Origin: Escherichia coli
GTDB taxonomy: Bacteria; Pseudomonadota; Gammaproteobacteria; Enterobacterales; Enterobacteriaceae
Length of the DNA: 64,000 nt
Reading direction: 5' to 3' (one strand)
Assembly (NCBI RefSeq): GCF_003334815.1
Contig: NZ_QOWO01000019.1
Every line of letters begins with the position of its first letter. The first letter of the stretch is position 1. Made by a program: the position numbers. Below, piece after piece: positions 44,901 through 50,900 of the stretch.

Positions 44901-47900
44901 TCGCGGCGGTGGATTTGGTTTAGTTACCGCCTGTGCTGCCGGTGGGCTTGGCGCGGCAATGGTTCTGGAGGCGGAATAATGGAAATGACATCAGCGTTTA
45001 CCCTTAATGTTCGTCTGGACAACATTGCCGTTATCACCATCGACGTACCGGGTGAGAAAATGAATACCCTGAAGGCGGAGTTTGCCTCGCAGGTGCGCGC
45101 CATTATTAAGCAACTCCGTGAAAACAAAGAGTTGCGAGGCGTGGTGTTTGTCTCCGCTAAACCGGACAACTTCATTGCTGGCGCAGACATCAACATGATC
45201 GGCAACTGCAAAACGGCGCAAGAAGCGGAAGCTCTGGCGCGGCAGGGCCAACAGTTGATGGCGGAGATTCATGCTTTGCCCATTCAGGTTATCGCGGCTA
45301 TTCATGGCGCTTGCCTGGGTGGTGGGCTGGAGTTGGCGCTGGCGTGCCACGGTCGCGTTTGTACTGACGATCCTAAAACGGTGCTCGGTTTGCCTGAAGT
45401 ACAACTTGGATTGTTACCCGGTTCAGGCGGCACCCAGCGTTTACCGCGTCTGATAGGCGTCAGCACAGCATTAGAGATGATCCTCACCGGAAAACAACTT
45501 CGGGCGAAACAGGCATTAAAGCTGGGGCTGGTGGATGACGTTGTTCCGCACTCCATTCTGCTGGAAGCCGCTGTTGAGCTGGCAAAGAAGGAGCGCCCAT
45601 CTTCCCGCCCTCTACCTGTACGCGAGCGTATTCTGGCGGGGCCGTTAGGTCGTGCGCTGCTGTTCAAAATGGTCGGCAAGAAAACAGAACACAAAACTCA
45701 AGGCAATTATCCGGCGACAGAACGCATCCTGGAGGTTGTTGAAACGGGATTAGCGCAGGGCACCAGCAGCGGTTATGACGCCGAAGCTCGGGCGTTTGGC
45801 GAACTGGCGATGACGCCACAATCGCAGGCGCTGCGTAGTATCTTTTTTGCCAGTACGGACGTGAAGAAAGATCCCGGCAGTGATGCGCCGCCTGCGCCAT
45901 TAAACAGCGTGGGGATTTTAGGTGGTGGCTTGATGGGCGGCGGTATTGCTTATGTCACTGCTTGTAAAGCGGGGATTCCGGTCAGAATTAAAGATATCAA
46001 CCCGCAGGGCATAAATCATGCGCTGAAGTACAGTTGGGATCAGCTGGAGGGCAAAGTTCGCCGTCGTCATCTCAAAGCCAGCGAACGTGACAAACAGCTG
46101 GCATTAATCTCCGGAACGACGGACTATCGCGGCTTTGCCCATCGCGATCTGATTATTGAAGCGGTGTTTGAAAATCTCGAATTGAAACAACAGATGGTGG
46201 CGGAAGTTGAGCAAAATTGCGCCGCTCATACCATCTTTGCTTCGAATACGTCATCTTTACCGATTGGTGATATCGCCGCTCACGCCACGCGACCTGAGCA
46301 AGTTATCGGCCTGCATTTCTTCAGTCCGGTGGAAAAAATGCCGCTGGTGGAGATTATTCCTCATGCGGGGACATCGGCGCAAACCATCGCTACCACAGTA
46401 AAACTGGCGAAAAAACAGGGTAAAACGCCAATTGTCGTGCGTGACAAAGCCGGTTTTTACGTCAATCGCATCTTAGCGCCTTACATTAATGAAGCTATCC
46501 GCATGTTGACCCAAGGTGAACGGGTAGAGCACATTGATGCCGCGCTAGTGAAATTTGGTTTTCCGGTAGGCCCAATCCAACTTTTGGATGAGGTAGGAAT
46601 CGACACCGGGACTAAAATTATTCCTGTACTGGAAGCCGCTTATGGAGAACGTTTTAGCGCGCCTGCAAATGTTGTTTCTTCAATTTTGAACGACGATCGC
46701 AAAGGCAGAAAAAATGGCCGGGGTTTCTATCTTTATGGTCAGAAAGGGCGTAAAAGCAAAAAACAGGTCGATCCCGCCATTTACCCGCTGATTGGCACAC
46801 AAGGGCAGGGGCGAATCTCCGCACCGCAGGTTGCTGAACGGTGTGTGATGTTGATGCTGAATGAAGCAGTACGTTGTGTTGATGAGCAGGTTATCCGTAG
46901 CGTGCGTGACGGGGATATTGGCGCGGTATTTGGCATTGGTTTTCCGCCATTTCTCGGTGGACCGTTCCGCTATATCGATTCTCTCGGCGCGGGCGAAGTG
47001 GTTGCAATAATGCAACGACTTGCCACGCAGTATGGTTCCCGTTTTACCCCTTGCGAGCGTTTGGTCGAGATGGGCGCGCGTGGGGAAAGTTTTTGGAAAA
47101 CAACTGCAACTGACCTGCAATAAGAAGGTCAAAGCTATATGAATCCGCGCTGAATGGCGGAGTGTTGGTCAAAATGTAAACGCATATTGACTATACTTAC
47201 GCCATTGAGGTAAAAAACAGCGTTTCATTCGGTGAATGGATAAGGCACAATGCCGGCCACCGTTTTCTTTCTCTGGTTTCAGATGAAAGAAAACGGGCGA
47301 ATCTGGTTAACAAAAGCGGTGCAATATGCAAGTTTTTATCATGCGTCACGGCGACGCAGCCCTCGATGCCGCCAGTGATTCCGTTCGTCCTCTGACCACT
47401 AATGGTTGTGACGAATCTCGCCTGATGGCGAACTGGCTGAAAGGTCAAAAAGTGGAAATCGAACGCGTTCTGGTGAGCCCGTTCCTGCGAGCCGAGCAAA
47501 CACTGGAAGAAGTAGGGGATTGTCTGAACCTGCCTTCCAGTGCAGAAGTTCTGCCGGAGTTAACGCCCTGCGGCGATGTTGGTCTGGTCAGTGCCTATTT
47601 GCAGGCGTTGACCAATGAAGGTGTTGCTTCGGTACTGGTGATCTCTCACTTACCGTTAGTCGGGTATCTGGTTGCCGAGTTATGTCCGGGCGAAACGCCG
47701 CCTATGTTTACCACCTCGGCCATTGCCAGCGTAACGCTTGATGAAAGCGGAAACGGCACATTCAACTGGCAGATGAGCCCGTGTAATCTGAAGATGGCAA
47801 AAGCTATCTGATGAGTTCCAAATTATGCCCAATGAGGTAGATTCATTGGGCATAATTGCTCATCAGGCAGCGGATATCTGTCAACCTCACTACTATCGAA

Positions 47901-50900
47901 GACTCTCCCCATCTATAAATAAAACACCTTTAACTTTCATTCGGAAAGTATTCTTCTGCGCGTATCTTGATTTTGCCCAAAGTTACATGTTGAAATGAAT
48001 AATGTCTGTTTGACACTCATTATCATTTATTAATACAGATAATGGAGAAAATAGAGTTGAATAATCAGGCAGGACGTAATTGAAACTTGATTAAATTCTG
48101 GCTATAGTGTTTATATATTATATCGACAAAAGCGGGTTAATGCCAATCGCATTATATGTTCATTGTTTGTTTTTTAAGCTATTGGCATTCATTGTTGATA
48201 TGCTTCCTGTTTTTTCTAAATATATATTTCGTGTTTTTTTAGAAGATCCTTAAGATAATCTTTCCCCTATCAATATATTAATTAAATCTACATTTACTCA
48301 TTAGTAAAATTAAATTGAATCAGGGGAGTGAAAACATCACTATTCGACCCCACACCAACGAATACATTTTTTACGACCTGTTTTTTTGGATCGCATGCCG
48401 TATTCAATGGCTGGGTATAAACATTGGCTATTGACTGAATCAATGTATTGCAATGTTTATATTTTAATTATTTATAGTTTAAGGACAAATAATGAGTAAG
48501 TTTGTTAAAACAGCTATTGCTGCGGCAATGGTGATGGGCGCGTTCACCTCTACGGCAACAATCGCTGCGGGTAACAACGGTACTGCACGTTTTTACGGCA
48601 CCATTGAAGACTCAGTGTGTTCTATCGTTCCGGACGATCACAAACTGGAAGTTGATATGGGTGATATCGGTGCCGAAAAACTGAAAAATAACGGCACCAC
48701 CACGCCGAAAAATTTCCAGATTCGCCTGCAAGATTGCGTATTTGATACTCAGGAAACAATGACCACTACCTTTACTGGTACCGTTTCTTCTGCAAATAGC
48801 GGCAATTATTACACCATTTTCAATACCGATACCGGTGCGGCATTTAACAATGTTAGCCTGGCGATCGGTGACTCTCTGGGTACCTCTTACAAAAGCGGCA
48901 TGGGTATTGACCAGAAAATCGTGAAAGATACTGCCACTAATAAAGGCAAAGCGAAGCAGACTCTGAACTTTAAAGCCTGGCTGGTCGGCGCAGCTGATGC
49001 GCCAGATCTGGGTAATTTCGAAGCAAATACCACCTTCCAGATTACTTACCTGTAAGGCATACCCCCATAGCGACACTGCTATGGGGTATTTAAATGGATT
49101 TTGACCGAACAAGAATAAAAACGGATAAAAACGTGTATGCCTGACCATTCTCTTTTTCGATTACGGATTCTTCCGTGGTGCATTGCGCTGGCAATGTCAG
49201 GGAGTTATAGCAGTGTCTGGGCTGAAGACGACATTCAGTTTGATTCCCGTTTTCTGGAATTAAAAGGCGACACAAAAATTGATCTGAAGCGTTTTTCCAG
49301 CCAGGGGTATGTTGAGCCCGGAAAATACAATTTACAGGTTCAACTAAATAAACAGCCATTGGCGGAAGAGTACGATATTTACTGGTATGCTGGTGAAGAT
49401 GACGTTAGCAAAAGCTATGCTTGTCTGACACCGGAACTGGTGGCGCAGTTTGGTTTAAAAGAAGACGTGGCGAAAAATCTGCAATGGAGCCACGATGGTA
49501 AATGCCTGAAGCCCGGTCAACTGGAAGGCGTGGAAATTAAGGCTGATTTAAGCCAGTCCGCATTAGTCATTTCACTACCGCAGGCTTACCTCGAATATAC
49601 CTGGCCCGACTGGGATCCACCTTCTCGTTGGGATGATGGCATCTCCGGGATCATTGCGGACTACAGCATCACTGCGCAAACACGACACGAAGAAAATGGC
49701 GGCGATGACAGTAACGAGATCAGCGGCAACGGGACGGTCGGGGTTAACCTGGGGCCATGGCGTATGCGCGCTGACTGGCAGACCAACTATCAACATACGC
49801 GCAGTAATGATGATGACGATGAATTTGGCGGCGATGACACACAAAAAAAATGGGAGTGGAGTCGCTATTATGCCTGGCGGGCGTTACCGTCATTAAAAGC
49901 CAAACTGGCGCTGGGCGAAGATTACCTCAATTCCGATATTTTCGACGGTTTTAATTATGTTGGTGGCAGTGTCAGCACTGACGATCAAATGTTGCCTCCC
50001 AATCTGCGCGGCTACGCGCCAGACATTTCCGGCGTGGCACACACCACAGCAAAAGTGACCGTCAGCCAGATGGGGCGTGTGATTTACGAAACGCAGGTTC
50101 CGGCTGGACCGTTTCGTATTCAGGATCTTGGTGATTCCGTCTCCGGTACGTTGCATATTCGCATTGAAGAACAGAACGGCCAGGTGCAGGAATATGACAT
50201 CAGCACCGCCTCGATGCCATACCTCACTCGCCCAGGCCAGGTTCGCTATAAGATCATGATGGGACGTCCGCAAGAGTGGGGCCACCATGTCGAGGGGGGA
50301 TTTTTCTCTGGTGCTGAAGCCTCCTGGGGCATCGCTAACGGCTGGTCGTTATATGGCGGTGCGCTGGGTGATGAAAACTATCAGTCTGCGGCGCTGGGCG
50401 TCGGTCGCGATTTGTCTACCTTCGGCGCGGTCGCGTTTGATGTTACTCATTCGCATACCAAACTGGATAAAGACACCGCTTATGGCAAAGGTTCGCTGGA
50501 CGGTAACTCCTTCCGTGTGAGTTATTCCAAAGACTTTGACCAGCTCAACAGCCGCGTCACTTTCGCTGGATATCGCTTCTCGGAAGAGAACTTTATGACC
50601 ATGAGCGAGTATCTGGATGCCAGTGACAGCGAAATGGTCCGTACGGGCAACGACAAAGAGATGTACACCGCCACTTATAACCAGAACTTCCGCGATGCGG
50701 GTGTTTCGGTTTATCTCAACTATACCCGCCATACCTACTGGGATCGTGAGGAGCAGACAAACTACAACATCATGCTCTCCCACTATTTCAATATGGGCAG
50801 CATTCGTAATATGAGCGTTTCCCTGACTGGCTACCGCTACGAGTATGACAACCGGGCGGATAAGGGCATGTACATTTCGCTCAGTATGCCGTGGGGCGAC

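What the first reader, a model, noticed from the sequence alone, without database searches (positions are those of the whole stretch)
47858..48491. Long AT-rich leader upstream of the fimbrial operon with an inverted-repeat motif
About 630 bp of very AT-rich non-coding DNA with many A/T tracts separates the sixA-proximal palindrome from yfcV. This is the typical look of an H-NS-silenced fimbrial control region. Within it, aatgccaat (48139–48147) and its complement attggcatt (48181–48189) form a 9-bp inverted repeat separated by 33 bp, and each arm is followed by cattgtt. I saw no fimS-like switch bounded by longer inverted repeats.
Basis: seen in the sequence. Interest (0 to 1): 0.25.

Follow-up and report, generated by a model that had tools for sequence, protein, structure and literature searches.

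The report
Silenced AT-rich yfc fimbrial control region
This is the AT-rich DNA upstream of the cryptic E. coli K-12 yfc fimbrial operon, already published as bound by the silencer protein H-NS, and the 9-bp inverted repeat in it is a chance feature of one lineage, so the finding is ordinary.

Summary
The window is E. coli K-12 MG1655. It is identical to NC_000913.3 over the 5,001 bases compared. The finding lies in the 680-bp sixA–yfcV spacer.

The described sequence is there. The spacer has 31.5% G+C and is the most AT-rich stretch of the 64-kb window. AATGCCAAT (48139–48147) and ATTGGCATT (48181–48189) are separated by 33 bp.

The repeat is not special. A perfect 9-bp inverted repeat within 50 bp arises in 23% of shuffles. 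The exact K-12 segment occurs in 1,205 of 5,426 E. coli genomes. All seven other alleles I read at this site have a broken right arm and no compensating change. No genome carries an inverted orientation of this or two other repeat pairs.

The H-NS reading is supported by published work. The spacer is listed as an H-NS-bound "promoter island". It also has sigma-70 and sigma-S RNA polymerase binding peaks and a proposed promoter, TTGAAA-17-TATAGT (48080–48108).

The conserved sequence lies closer to yfcV, at 48303–48500. It could be a proximal promoter plus a possibly structured leader, but the evidence for structure is equivocal.

Verdict: already known, low interest.

The parts
47812..48491 (.). 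The sixA-yfcV intergenic spacer (680 bp), regulatory region of the yfc chaperone-usher operon. The finding (47858-48491) lies inside it.
   Evidence: ORFs and RefSeq annotation. G+C is 31.5%, the lowest in the window. There is no conserved small ORF: ORF48 and ORF39 are broken by a stop codon or frameshift in sister alleles, and ORF57 is broken in Escherichia sp. MOD1-EC7003.
47821..47857 (+). Stem-loop just after sixA (15-bp perfect arms, 7-nt loop), probably the sixA terminator or 3' stabiliser. It marks the boundary where between-strain divergence jumps.
   Evidence: I1. RNA fold -22.5 kcal/mol, z = -5.15. Five base pairs keep pairing through changes on both sides across alleles. No T-run, so the terminator scan did not call it.
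48027..48515 (.). Approximate position of the published H-NS-bound 'promoter island' 2453647_489 (yfcV/sixA).
   Evidence: PMC3661553 Table 1. I mapped it with g(NC_000913.3) = 2504138 - w plus a U00096.2-to-.3 offset of 1976 recalled from memory. The same mapping puts the neighbouring yfdF/mlaA island on an AT-rich minimum of the window, which supports the offset.
48080..48108 (+). Distal sigma-70 promoter proposed for yfcV: TTGAAA-17-TATAGT. The implied start near 48115 gives a leader of about 375 nt.
   Evidence: Consensus scan, 10 of 12 matches. The same hexamers are assigned to yfcV under an RpoD holoenzyme genomic-SELEX peak in PMC3946193 Table 2. The TTG of the -35 is invariant across alleles but the -10 is not. 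No mapped transcription start was found.
48117..48146 (-). Antisense promoter-like site, TTGGCA-18-TATAAT, whose -35 is the left arm of the inverted repeat.
   Evidence: 11 of 12 matches, the best consensus match in the spacer. This fits the published 'promoter island' character. Function untested.
48139..48189 (.). The reported 9-bp inverted repeat, AATGCCAAT (48139-48147) and ATTGGCATT (48181-48189), with a 33-bp spacer.
   Evidence: Chance level. The right arm is GTTGATATT or GTTGACATT in all seven non-K-12 alleles read at this site. RNA fold z = -1.56. No inverted state in 5,426 genomes.
48159..48196 (+). Direct repeat TTCATTGTT, two copies (48159-48167 and 48188-48196).
   Evidence: D12. 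The second copy reads TTCATTATT in non-K-12 alleles. A repeat of this kind appears in 30% of randomisations.
48303..48343 (+). Conserved block AGTAAAATTAAATTG, followed by a candidate proximal promoter TTGAAT (48315-48320)-17-CACTAT (48338-48343). This is my inference.
   Evidence: The TTG is at least 90% conserved. C, A, A and T of the CAnnAT hexamer are invariant in 14 sequences, including the divergent allele of human clinical isolates and Pseudocitrobacter. It falls below the threshold of the scan (7 of 12 matches by my count). No start-site data.
48349..48415 (+). Two conserved blocks that are complementary to each other, CCCACACCAACGAATA and TATTCAATGGCTGGG. Possible 5' stem of a leader RNA (H1).
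   Evidence: The inner 8 pairs are 99% paired but essentially invariant, so they are uninformative. The outer 3 pairs are 74% paired with some changes on both sides. Fold z = -1.21.
48416..48461 (+). 11-bp perfect inverted repeat TATAAACATTG / CAATGTTTATA with a nested TATTGA/TCAATG repeat. Hairpin H2, just upstream of the ribosome-binding site.
   Evidence: I7. Matched by 1.6% of shuffles. RNA fold -14.6 kcal/mol, z = -3.61. An AU-to-GC double change is seen in four sequences. No inverted state in genomes.
48455..48500 (+). Near-invariant 46-nt block holding the Shine-Dalgarno AAGGA (48481-48485) and the yfcV ATG (48492). A weak hairpin (H3) could pair with the AUG.
   Evidence: Fold -4.1 kcal/mol, z = -0.6. 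Three of its 12 pairs are broken in the divergent allele of CREC-591, UPEC132 and LR-28, without compensation.
48492..49055 (+). yfcV, the first gene of the operon (fimbrial protein, 187 aa).

Best explanation
The stretch is the upstream regulatory spacer of the cryptic yfc chaperone-usher fimbrial operon of E. coli K-12.

Proposed mechanism: its AT-rich, TpA-rich DNA is coated by the nucleoid protein H-NS. RNA polymerase can bind there, and both the sigma-70 and sigma-S forms do so in vitro, but productive transcription of yfcV is silenced. Expression appears when silencing is overcome by overproducing the regulators BolA or TosR, and presumably when H-NS is lost.

The published candidate promoter is TTGAAA-17-TATAGT at 48080-48108. 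A second, better-conserved candidate promoter and leader lie at 48303-48500.

The 9-bp inverted repeat and the cattgtt repeat are incidental products of low-complexity AT-rich sequence. Point substitutions in the K-12-type allele created them, and they are not operators, switches or conserved RNA elements.

Shown: sequence composition, lack of conservation of the repeat, and absence of inversion. Taken from the literature: H-NS and RNA polymerase binding. Inferred: which promoter is used and how silencing works.
For: - Identity and context: the window equals NC_000913.3, with gene order sixA, yfcV, yfcU.
- Composition: the spacer is the most AT-rich stretch of the window, and its TpA count is in the top 0.6%.
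- H-NS occupancy and 'promoter island' listing: PMC3661553 Table 1.
- RpoD holoenzyme SELEX peak, an H-NS site and the promoter TTGAAA-17-TATAGT: PMC3946193. These hexamers are the same ones my scan found at 48080-48108.
- RpoS holoenzyme peak in the same spacer: PMC5493296.
- yfc is cryptic but functional, and cryptic chaperone-usher fimbriae of commensal E. coli are H-NS-repressed: PMC3559732 citing Korea 2010.
- Induction by BolA (PMC4337573) and by TosR, 5.2 log2-fold in strain CFT073 (PMC5956150).
- The repeat is incidental: chance level; exact K-12 segment in only 1,205 of 5,426 genomes; right arm broken without compensation in all seven other alleles read at this site; RNA fold not exceptional; no Rfam match; the ORF that overlaps it is interrupted in sister alleles; no inverted state in any genome.
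Against: - I found no mapped transcription start for yfcV. The one supplement searched was truncated in storage. Promoter assignment therefore rests on consensus matching under low-resolution SELEX peaks.
- My simple promoter scan found only 4 promoter-like sites against 4.0 expected. It does not reproduce the published island's high promoter density, though it is a different and cruder algorithm.
- The H-NS column of PMC3661553 cites two of three ChIP-chip datasets, not the Grainger data.
- Derepression of yfc itself in an hns mutant is known to me only second-hand and only as a class-level statement. Korea 2010 is not held in the library.
- Predicted curvature and A-tract phasing are ordinary.
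- Lack of conservation does not exclude a K-12-specific role for the repeat.
Confidence: 0.85

Rival explanations
1. The functional core is not the distal AT-rich DNA or the repeat but the conserved proximal 200 bp (48303-48500). On this reading it holds a weak promoter with an upstream A/T-rich (UP-like) stretch, TTGAAT-17-CACTAT, starting near 48350. Its leader of about 140 nt would fold into two or three helices (H1, H2, H3) that control mRNA stability or translation of yfcV. This adds to H-NS silencing rather than replacing it.
For: - Strains differ by 41-52% across the whole spacer and by 15-36% in yfcV, yet blocks 48303-48317, 48349-48365 and 48455-48500 stay nearly invariant, even in Pseudocitrobacter.
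- The -35 TTG and the CAnnAT hexamer are conserved at 17-bp spacing.
- The two conserved blocks are mutually complementary. The consensus fold is 93-98% paired, its covariation score exceeds all 500 shuffles, and slid controls drop to about 40-48% paired.
- The H2 hairpin has z = -3.61 and AU-to-GC double changes.
- A Citrobacter homologue at 41% protein identity has a similar CCAAAATAATA ... TTATTTTTGG arrangement upstream (by eye).
Against: - Most pairs never vary, so they say nothing either way.
- The number of pairs with changes on both sides (4) is no better than in shuffles (187-230 of 500 shuffles reach it).
- There are few independent lineages.
- H3 loses 3 of 12 pairs in the divergent allele of CREC-591, UPEC132 and LR-28, and the outer part of H1 is only 74% paired.
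- The whole-leader fold has z = -0.99.
- The candidate -10 matches the consensus at only 3 of 6 positions, and the scan did not call this site.
- The published RNA polymerase peaks appear to sit distally: the RpoS peak maps to about 47990 by my coordinate conversion.
- There is no Rfam family and no start-site data.
Confidence: 0.25
2. The 9-bp inverted repeat is an operator: two half-sites, 42 bp centre to centre, bound by a dimeric or looping regulator of yfcV.
For: - The arms are a perfect 9/9 match, or 11 of 12 when extended.
- The centre-to-centre distance of 42 bp is about four helical turns.
- It lies just downstream of the distal promoter.
Against: - Chance level.
- The right arm has 2-3 mismatches in every non-K-12 allele read at this site, while the left arm is kept, so the palindrome is a recent K-12-lineage state.
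- By inspection it is not a sigma-54 promoter, and I recognised no other factor motif.
- No regulator gene is adjacent.
Confidence: 0.04
3. The repeat forms an RNA hairpin at about +25 to +75 of a long leader transcribed from the distal promoter, acting as an attenuator or stability element.
For: - It lies downstream of the SELEX-assigned promoter.
- It folds to -15.2 kcal/mol, with a U-rich stretch about 20 nt downstream of the stem.
Against: - z = -1.56, and 14 of 200 shuffles fold at least as well.
- The consensus fold of seven alleles predicts no pairs here.
- The stem is broken without compensation in sister alleles.
- The 27-nt loop and the distant U-tract are not terminator-like, and the scan called no terminator.
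Confidence: 0.04
4. The spacer holds a phase-variation switch, either a fimS-like invertible segment or a Pap-like Dam/Lrp methylation switch.
For: - Short inverted repeats exist at switch-like geometry. One example is the 10-bp pair CTATAAATAA 47913-47922 / TTATTTATAG 48468-48477, which flanks 545 bp including the promoters (I13).
- There are two GATC sites, at 48245 and 48389.
Against: - None of 5,426 complete genomes has the inverted junction for any of the three repeat pairs tested.
- The left arm of the 10-bp pair is not conserved in other alleles.
- No recombinase or papI/papB-type gene is adjacent.
- The GATC sites are 144 bp apart, not the 102 bp of pap (my knowledge), and the distal one is absent from the closest sister alleles.
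Confidence: 0.01

Closest known systems
H-NS-silenced cryptic chaperone-usher fimbrial operons of E. coli K-12 (yad, yeh, ybg, sfm, ycb, yra and yfc; Korea et al. 2010, cited via PMC3559732)
   Same: - AT-rich spacer upstream of the first gene of a chaperone-usher operon.
- Published H-NS occupancy.
- The operon is cryptic in laboratory culture but functional when expressed.
- This locus is itself one of the described set.
   Different: Nothing distinguishes it from the set. No dedicated local regulator is known here, and the promoter has not been mapped experimentally as far as I could find.
'Promoter islands' of E. coli (Panyukov & Ozoline 2013, PMC3661553)
   Same: - The yfcV/sixA spacer is entry 2453647_489 in their list of 78.
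- It is AT-rich, marked H-NS-bound and associated with a predicted genomic island; RNA polymerase holoenzymes bind it in the separate SELEX studies.
- The authors report very low transcript output for the islands as a class.
- Promoter-like hexamers occur on both strands. The left arm of the inverted repeat doubles as the -35 of an 11/12 antisense match.
   Different: My simple consensus scan does not show excess promoter density (4 found, 4.0 expected). The island definition depends on their PlatProm algorithm.
fimS invertible switch of type 1 fimbriae
   Same: Short (9-10 bp) inverted repeats in an AT-rich, H-NS-bound fimbrial control region.
   Different: - No inverted orientation in any of 5,426 genomes.
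- No adjacent recombinase gene.
- The repeats are not conserved.
- The 33-bp segment between the reported arms is too short to carry a promoter.
bgl-type cryptic operons activated by IS insertion into an H-NS silencer
   Same: Natural strains carry IS1 inside this spacer, at 48036-48045 and 48206-48214, as happens in the bgl silencer.
   Different: Whether these insertions activate yfc is untested. One IS1 event deleted yfcV outright.

Membership tests
H-NS-silenced cryptic chaperone-usher fimbrial control region | Lies directly upstream of the first gene of a chaperone-usher operon | tested here: met
   yfcV (fimbrial protein) and then yfcU (usher) follow the spacer.
H-NS-silenced cryptic chaperone-usher fimbrial control region | Markedly AT-rich and TpA-rich relative to the host genome | tested here: met
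   31.5% against 48.8% G+C, the lowest in the window. TpA count in the top 0.6%.
H-NS-silenced cryptic chaperone-usher fimbrial control region | H-NS occupancy in vivo | not testable with these tools
   Literature only. PMC3661553 Table 1 marks it as bound in the Kahramanoglou and Oshima ChIP-chip data. PMC3946193 flags an H-NS site.
H-NS-silenced cryptic chaperone-usher fimbrial control region | Derepression when hns is deleted | not testable with these tools
   Known only as a class-level statement in PMC3559732 citing Korea 2010. The primary paper is not held.
Promoter island (Panyukov & Ozoline) | At least 8 predicted start points per 100 bp over at least 300 bp (PlatProm) | tested here: inconclusive
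   The authors list it. My cruder consensus scan found 4 sites against 4.0 expected. PlatProm is not available here.
Promoter island (Panyukov & Ozoline) | Binds RNA polymerase but yields little transcript | not testable with these tools
   RpoD and RpoS holoenzyme SELEX peaks in the spacer. The operon is described as cryptic.
fimS-type invertible promoter switch | Both orientations of the segment between the repeats occur in nature | tested here: not met
   Inverted-state queries for three repeat pairs gave 0 of 5,426 genomes.
fimS-type invertible promoter switch | Dedicated tyrosine recombinase gene(s) adjacent | tested here: not met
   The neighbours are sixA and yfcV/yfcU only.
fimS-type invertible promoter switch | The inverted repeats are conserved among strains that carry the operon | tested here: not met
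   The right arm of the 9-bp pair and the left arm of the 10-bp pair differ in other alleles.
Pap-like Dam/Lrp methylation switch | Two conserved GATC sites about 102 bp apart, plus papI/papB-type regulators | tested here: not met
   The GATC sites at 48245 and 48389 are 144 bp apart. The distal one is absent in the closest sister alleles. No regulator genes are present. The 102-bp spacing is from my own knowledge of pap.
Any described RNA family (Rfam 15) | Covariance-model match at or near the gathering score | tested here: not met
   Only five chance-level eukaryotic snoRNA/miRNA hits, with E of 4 or more.

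The most novel reading that the evidence does not exclude
The conserved proximal 200 bp (48303-48500), not the reported repeat, may encode a previously undescribed cis-regulatory unit of Yfc fimbriae shared across Escherichia and Pseudocitrobacter. It would comprise a weak promoter with an upstream A/T-rich (UP-like) stretch and a structured 5' leader (stem H1 48349-48415, hairpin H2 48416-48461, and an AUG-occluding stem H3). These would set mRNA stability or translation independently of H-NS.
Probability: 0.2. Interest if true: 0.35.

Novelty: already known. Interest (0 to 1): 0.1.

Why it matters
The finding adds little as stated. The spacer was already catalogued as an H-NS-bound promoter island with RNA polymerase binding, and the repeat that drew attention is a lineage-specific coincidence.

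Three practical points come out of the check:
- Mutagenesis of the 9-bp arms is unlikely to be informative.
- Studies of yfc regulation should target the conserved 48303-48500 block and map the transcription start, which I could not find in the published data searched.
- The spacer and yfcV form a hyperdivergent allele block that begins right after the sixA terminator. I suspect, but did not test, that this is why yfcV PCR behaves as a lineage marker for uropathogenic E. coli. It also means regulatory conclusions from K-12 may not transfer to uropathogenic strains.

Tried and rejected
- **Rfam scan of 47700-48600 at permissive E-value:** only chance hits.
- **Small-ORF hypothesis:** ORF48, ORF57 and ORF39 are each interrupted or frameshifted in at least one related allele. 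Rejected.
- **Invertible-switch hypothesis:** chimeric inverted-junction queries for three repeat pairs against 5,426 genomes found none inverted. Rejected.
- **Pap-like GATC switch:** spacing and conservation are wrong. Rejected.
- **Sigma-54 reading of TGGCAT in the right arm:** the spacing is off by one and the -12 GC is absent, by inspection. Rejected.
- **Curvature and A-tract phasing:** no AA/TT periodicity at 10-11 bp beyond shuffles. Wedge-model curvature averages 6.9 degrees per turn against a window median of 6.0. The model parameters were recalled from memory, so this is indicative only.
- **H-NS high-affinity motif TCGATAAATT:** three sites with 2 mismatches in the spacer (4.4 per kb, against 1.4 per kb in the window). 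This is enriched, but I did not compare it with other AT-rich DNA of the window.
- **Mapped transcription start:** the Cappable-seq supplement is truncated in storage and held no coordinates for this locus. A literature search for yfcV plus 'transcription start' returned only the SELEX and promoter-island papers.
- **Korea et al. 2010:** could not be opened.
- **Genome-collection scan with YfcV:** 11 loci, of which six added useful upstream sequence.

Full report
**What the locus is.** The window carries fadJ (44979-47123), sixA (47326-47811), yfcV (48492-49055) and the usher gene yfcU (49137-51782), all on the + strand. Window 45638-50638 is base-for-base identical to the reverse complement of NC_000913.3 2453500-2458500, so this is E. 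coli K-12 MG1655. The conversion is genome coordinate = 2504138 minus window coordinate. The finding (47858-48491) is almost the whole 680-bp sixA-yfcV spacer. Two K-12 RefSeq records annotate nothing in it.

**Checking the observation.**
- The composition claim holds. The stretch has 31.5% G+C against 48.8% for the window. Only 0.1% of equal-sized windows are as low, and the global minimum falls in this same stretch.
- TpA steps (top 0.6%) and mixed A/T runs of 6 or more (top 1.5%) stand out. Pure A or T tracts are only in the top 11%.
- The 9-bp inverted repeat is exactly where stated, and it extends to 12 nt with one mismatch.
- 'Each arm followed by cattgtt' is loosely right. TTCATTGTT occurs at 48159-48167 and 48188-48196, but at different offsets from the two arms.
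- None of this exceeds chance. A perfect 9-bp inverted repeat within 50 bp appears in 23% of dinucleotide shuffles. Such repeats occur at 1.25 per kb in AT-rich parts of the real window, and a 9-nt direct repeat appears in 30% of randomisations.

**Conservation of the repeat.**
- The exact 71-nt K-12 segment around the repeat is in 1,205 of 5,426 complete E. coli genomes. About 1,800 more carry an 80-95% identical version.
- In all seven such alleles I read, the left arm is AATGCCAAT or AATGCCAAA. The right arm is GTTGATATT or GTTGACATT, and the second cattgtt reads cattatt. The palindrome is therefore a recent state of the K-12-type allele, with no compensatory change.
- In more distant alleles (O55:H7 type, MB53, KGu016) the region is not alignable at all.
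- As RNA the segment folds no better than 7% of shuffles, and the consensus fold of seven alleles places no pairs there.
- The 48-codon ORF that overlaps the repeat has a stop codon in most sister alleles. Rfam finds nothing.

**Switch hypotheses.** I built queries that represent the inverted state for three pairs: the reported pair, the 11-bp pair 48416-48426 / 48451-48461, and a 10-bp pair that flanks 545 bp (47913-47922 / 48468-48477). No genome of 5,426 matches an inverted junction. No recombinase or papI/papB-type gene is adjacent. The two GATC sites are 144 bp apart, and the distal one is missing from the closest alleles. I reject both a fimS-like and a Pap-like switch.

**What is already published.**
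- Panyukov & Ozoline (PMC3661553, Table 1) list 'yfcV(-)/sixA(-) 2453647_489' among 78 promoter islands. They mark it as H-NS-bound in the Kahramanoglou and Oshima datasets and as overlapping a predicted genomic island. By my conversion this is about window 48027-48515. The offset between the two genome versions is from memory, but it also places the neighbouring yfdF/mlaA island on an AT-rich minimum of the window.
- Shimada et al. (PMC3946193, Table 2 and Fig. 3b) report an RpoD holoenzyme SELEX peak in this spacer, an H-NS site, and the promoter TTGAAA-17-TATAGT. My scan found exactly these hexamers at 48080-48108.
- A sigma-S holoenzyme peak is also reported (PMC5493296).
- Wurpel et al. 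(PMC3559732), citing Korea 2010, call yfc functional but cryptic, and note that cryptic chaperone-usher fimbriae of commensal E. coli are H-NS-repressed.
- Overproduced BolA (PMC4337573) and TosR (PMC5956150, 5.2 log2-fold in CFT073) raise yfcV mRNA.

**Curvature.** AA/TT periodicity at 10-11 bp does not exceed shuffles. A wedge-model curvature is near the window average. Its parameters were recalled from memory, so it is indicative only.

**Where conservation actually lies.**
- Between strains sixA is 96-99.8% identical. The spacer falls to 48-59% and yfcV to 64-85%, and the break comes right after the sixA stem-loop.
- That stem-loop (47821-47857) is well supported, with z = -5.15 and five pairs that keep pairing through changes on both sides.
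- Against this background three proximal blocks stay nearly invariant in 14 sequences, which include E. whittamii, other Escherichia species and Pseudocitrobacter. They are 48303-48317, 48349-48365 and 48455-48500.
- They can be read as a promoter: TTGAAT at 48315-48320, 17 bp, then CACTAT at 48338-48343, with C, A, A and T invariant. A leader would follow whose conserved blocks pair with each other (H1), then the 11-bp-repeat hairpin (H2, z = -3.61), then a weak stem over the AUG (H3).
- The structural evidence is equivocal. The fold is 93-98% paired and its covariation score exceeds all shuffles. But most pairs are invariant, the count of pairs with changes on both sides is no better than in shuffles, and independent lineages are few. 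H3 also loses three pairs in the divergent allele of CREC-591, UPEC132 and LR-28. I give this reading about 0.2-0.25.

**Verdict.** The sequence features are real, and the H-NS interpretation is correct and already published. The inverted repeat is a chance, lineage-specific feature. Interest is low.

Noticed in passing
window 47812-49055, compared with L002, L004-L007: Between E. coli strains sixA is 96-99.8% identical. Divergence then jumps right after the sixA stem-loop: the spacer is 48-59% identical and yfcV 64-85%. In strain MB53, sixA is 99.8% identical to K-12 but yfcV only 73%. The spacer and yfcV therefore behave as an ancient hyperdivergent allele block with a sharp recombination boundary.
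   Followed up: partly
window 48036-48045, 48206-48214 and from 47850 (loci L025, L026, L008): Natural strains carry IS1 inside this spacer. XJW9B277 has it at 48036-48045 and NCTC_13148 at 48206-48214, each with a target duplication of about 9 bp. In PCP06171 an IS1 replaces everything from 47851 into yfcU. Whether the insertions activate yfc, as in bgl, is unknown.
   Followed up: partly
window 49137-51782: yfcU reads as an uninterrupted 881-codon ORF, the same length as intact yfcU in other strains. NC_000913.3 nevertheless annotates it as a pseudogene (b4661). Another K-12 record gives 'internal stop' as the reason, and that record differs from the window by one base. I verified identity with NC_000913.3 only up to window 50638.
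   Followed up: partly
window 48416-48461: An 11-bp perfect inverted repeat (TATAAACATTG / CAATGTTTATA) with a nested 6-bp repeat lies 30 nt upstream of the yfcV ATG.
   Followed up: yes
window 48117-48146, minus strand: The best sigma-70 consensus match in the spacer (TTGGCA-18-TATAAT, 11 of 12) points away from yfcV, towards sixA. It uses the left arm of the inverted repeat as its -35.
   Followed up: no
window 39858-40491, 40587-41220, 30515-31148: These are the other strongly AT-rich stretches of the window (32-34% G+C). By my coordinate conversion the first coincides with the published yfdF/mlaA promoter island. I did not identify the others.
   Followed up: no
L018 (contig labelled MAG: Collinsella sp.) and L017 (Stappia sp. 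BW2): Two contigs filed under unrelated taxa carry Escherichia-type sequence. The 2.2-kb 'Collinsella' MAG contig has a yfcV gene and upstream region of the KGu016 type, and the 428-bp 'Stappia' contig matches yfcV at 100%. Both are probably contamination or mis-binning.
   Followed up: no
L028 (E. coli BS-01): This strain has a rearranged spacer (69.8% identity over the proximal 206 nt) followed by a fimbrial gene annotated as a pseudogene that lacks its N-terminus.
   Followed up: no
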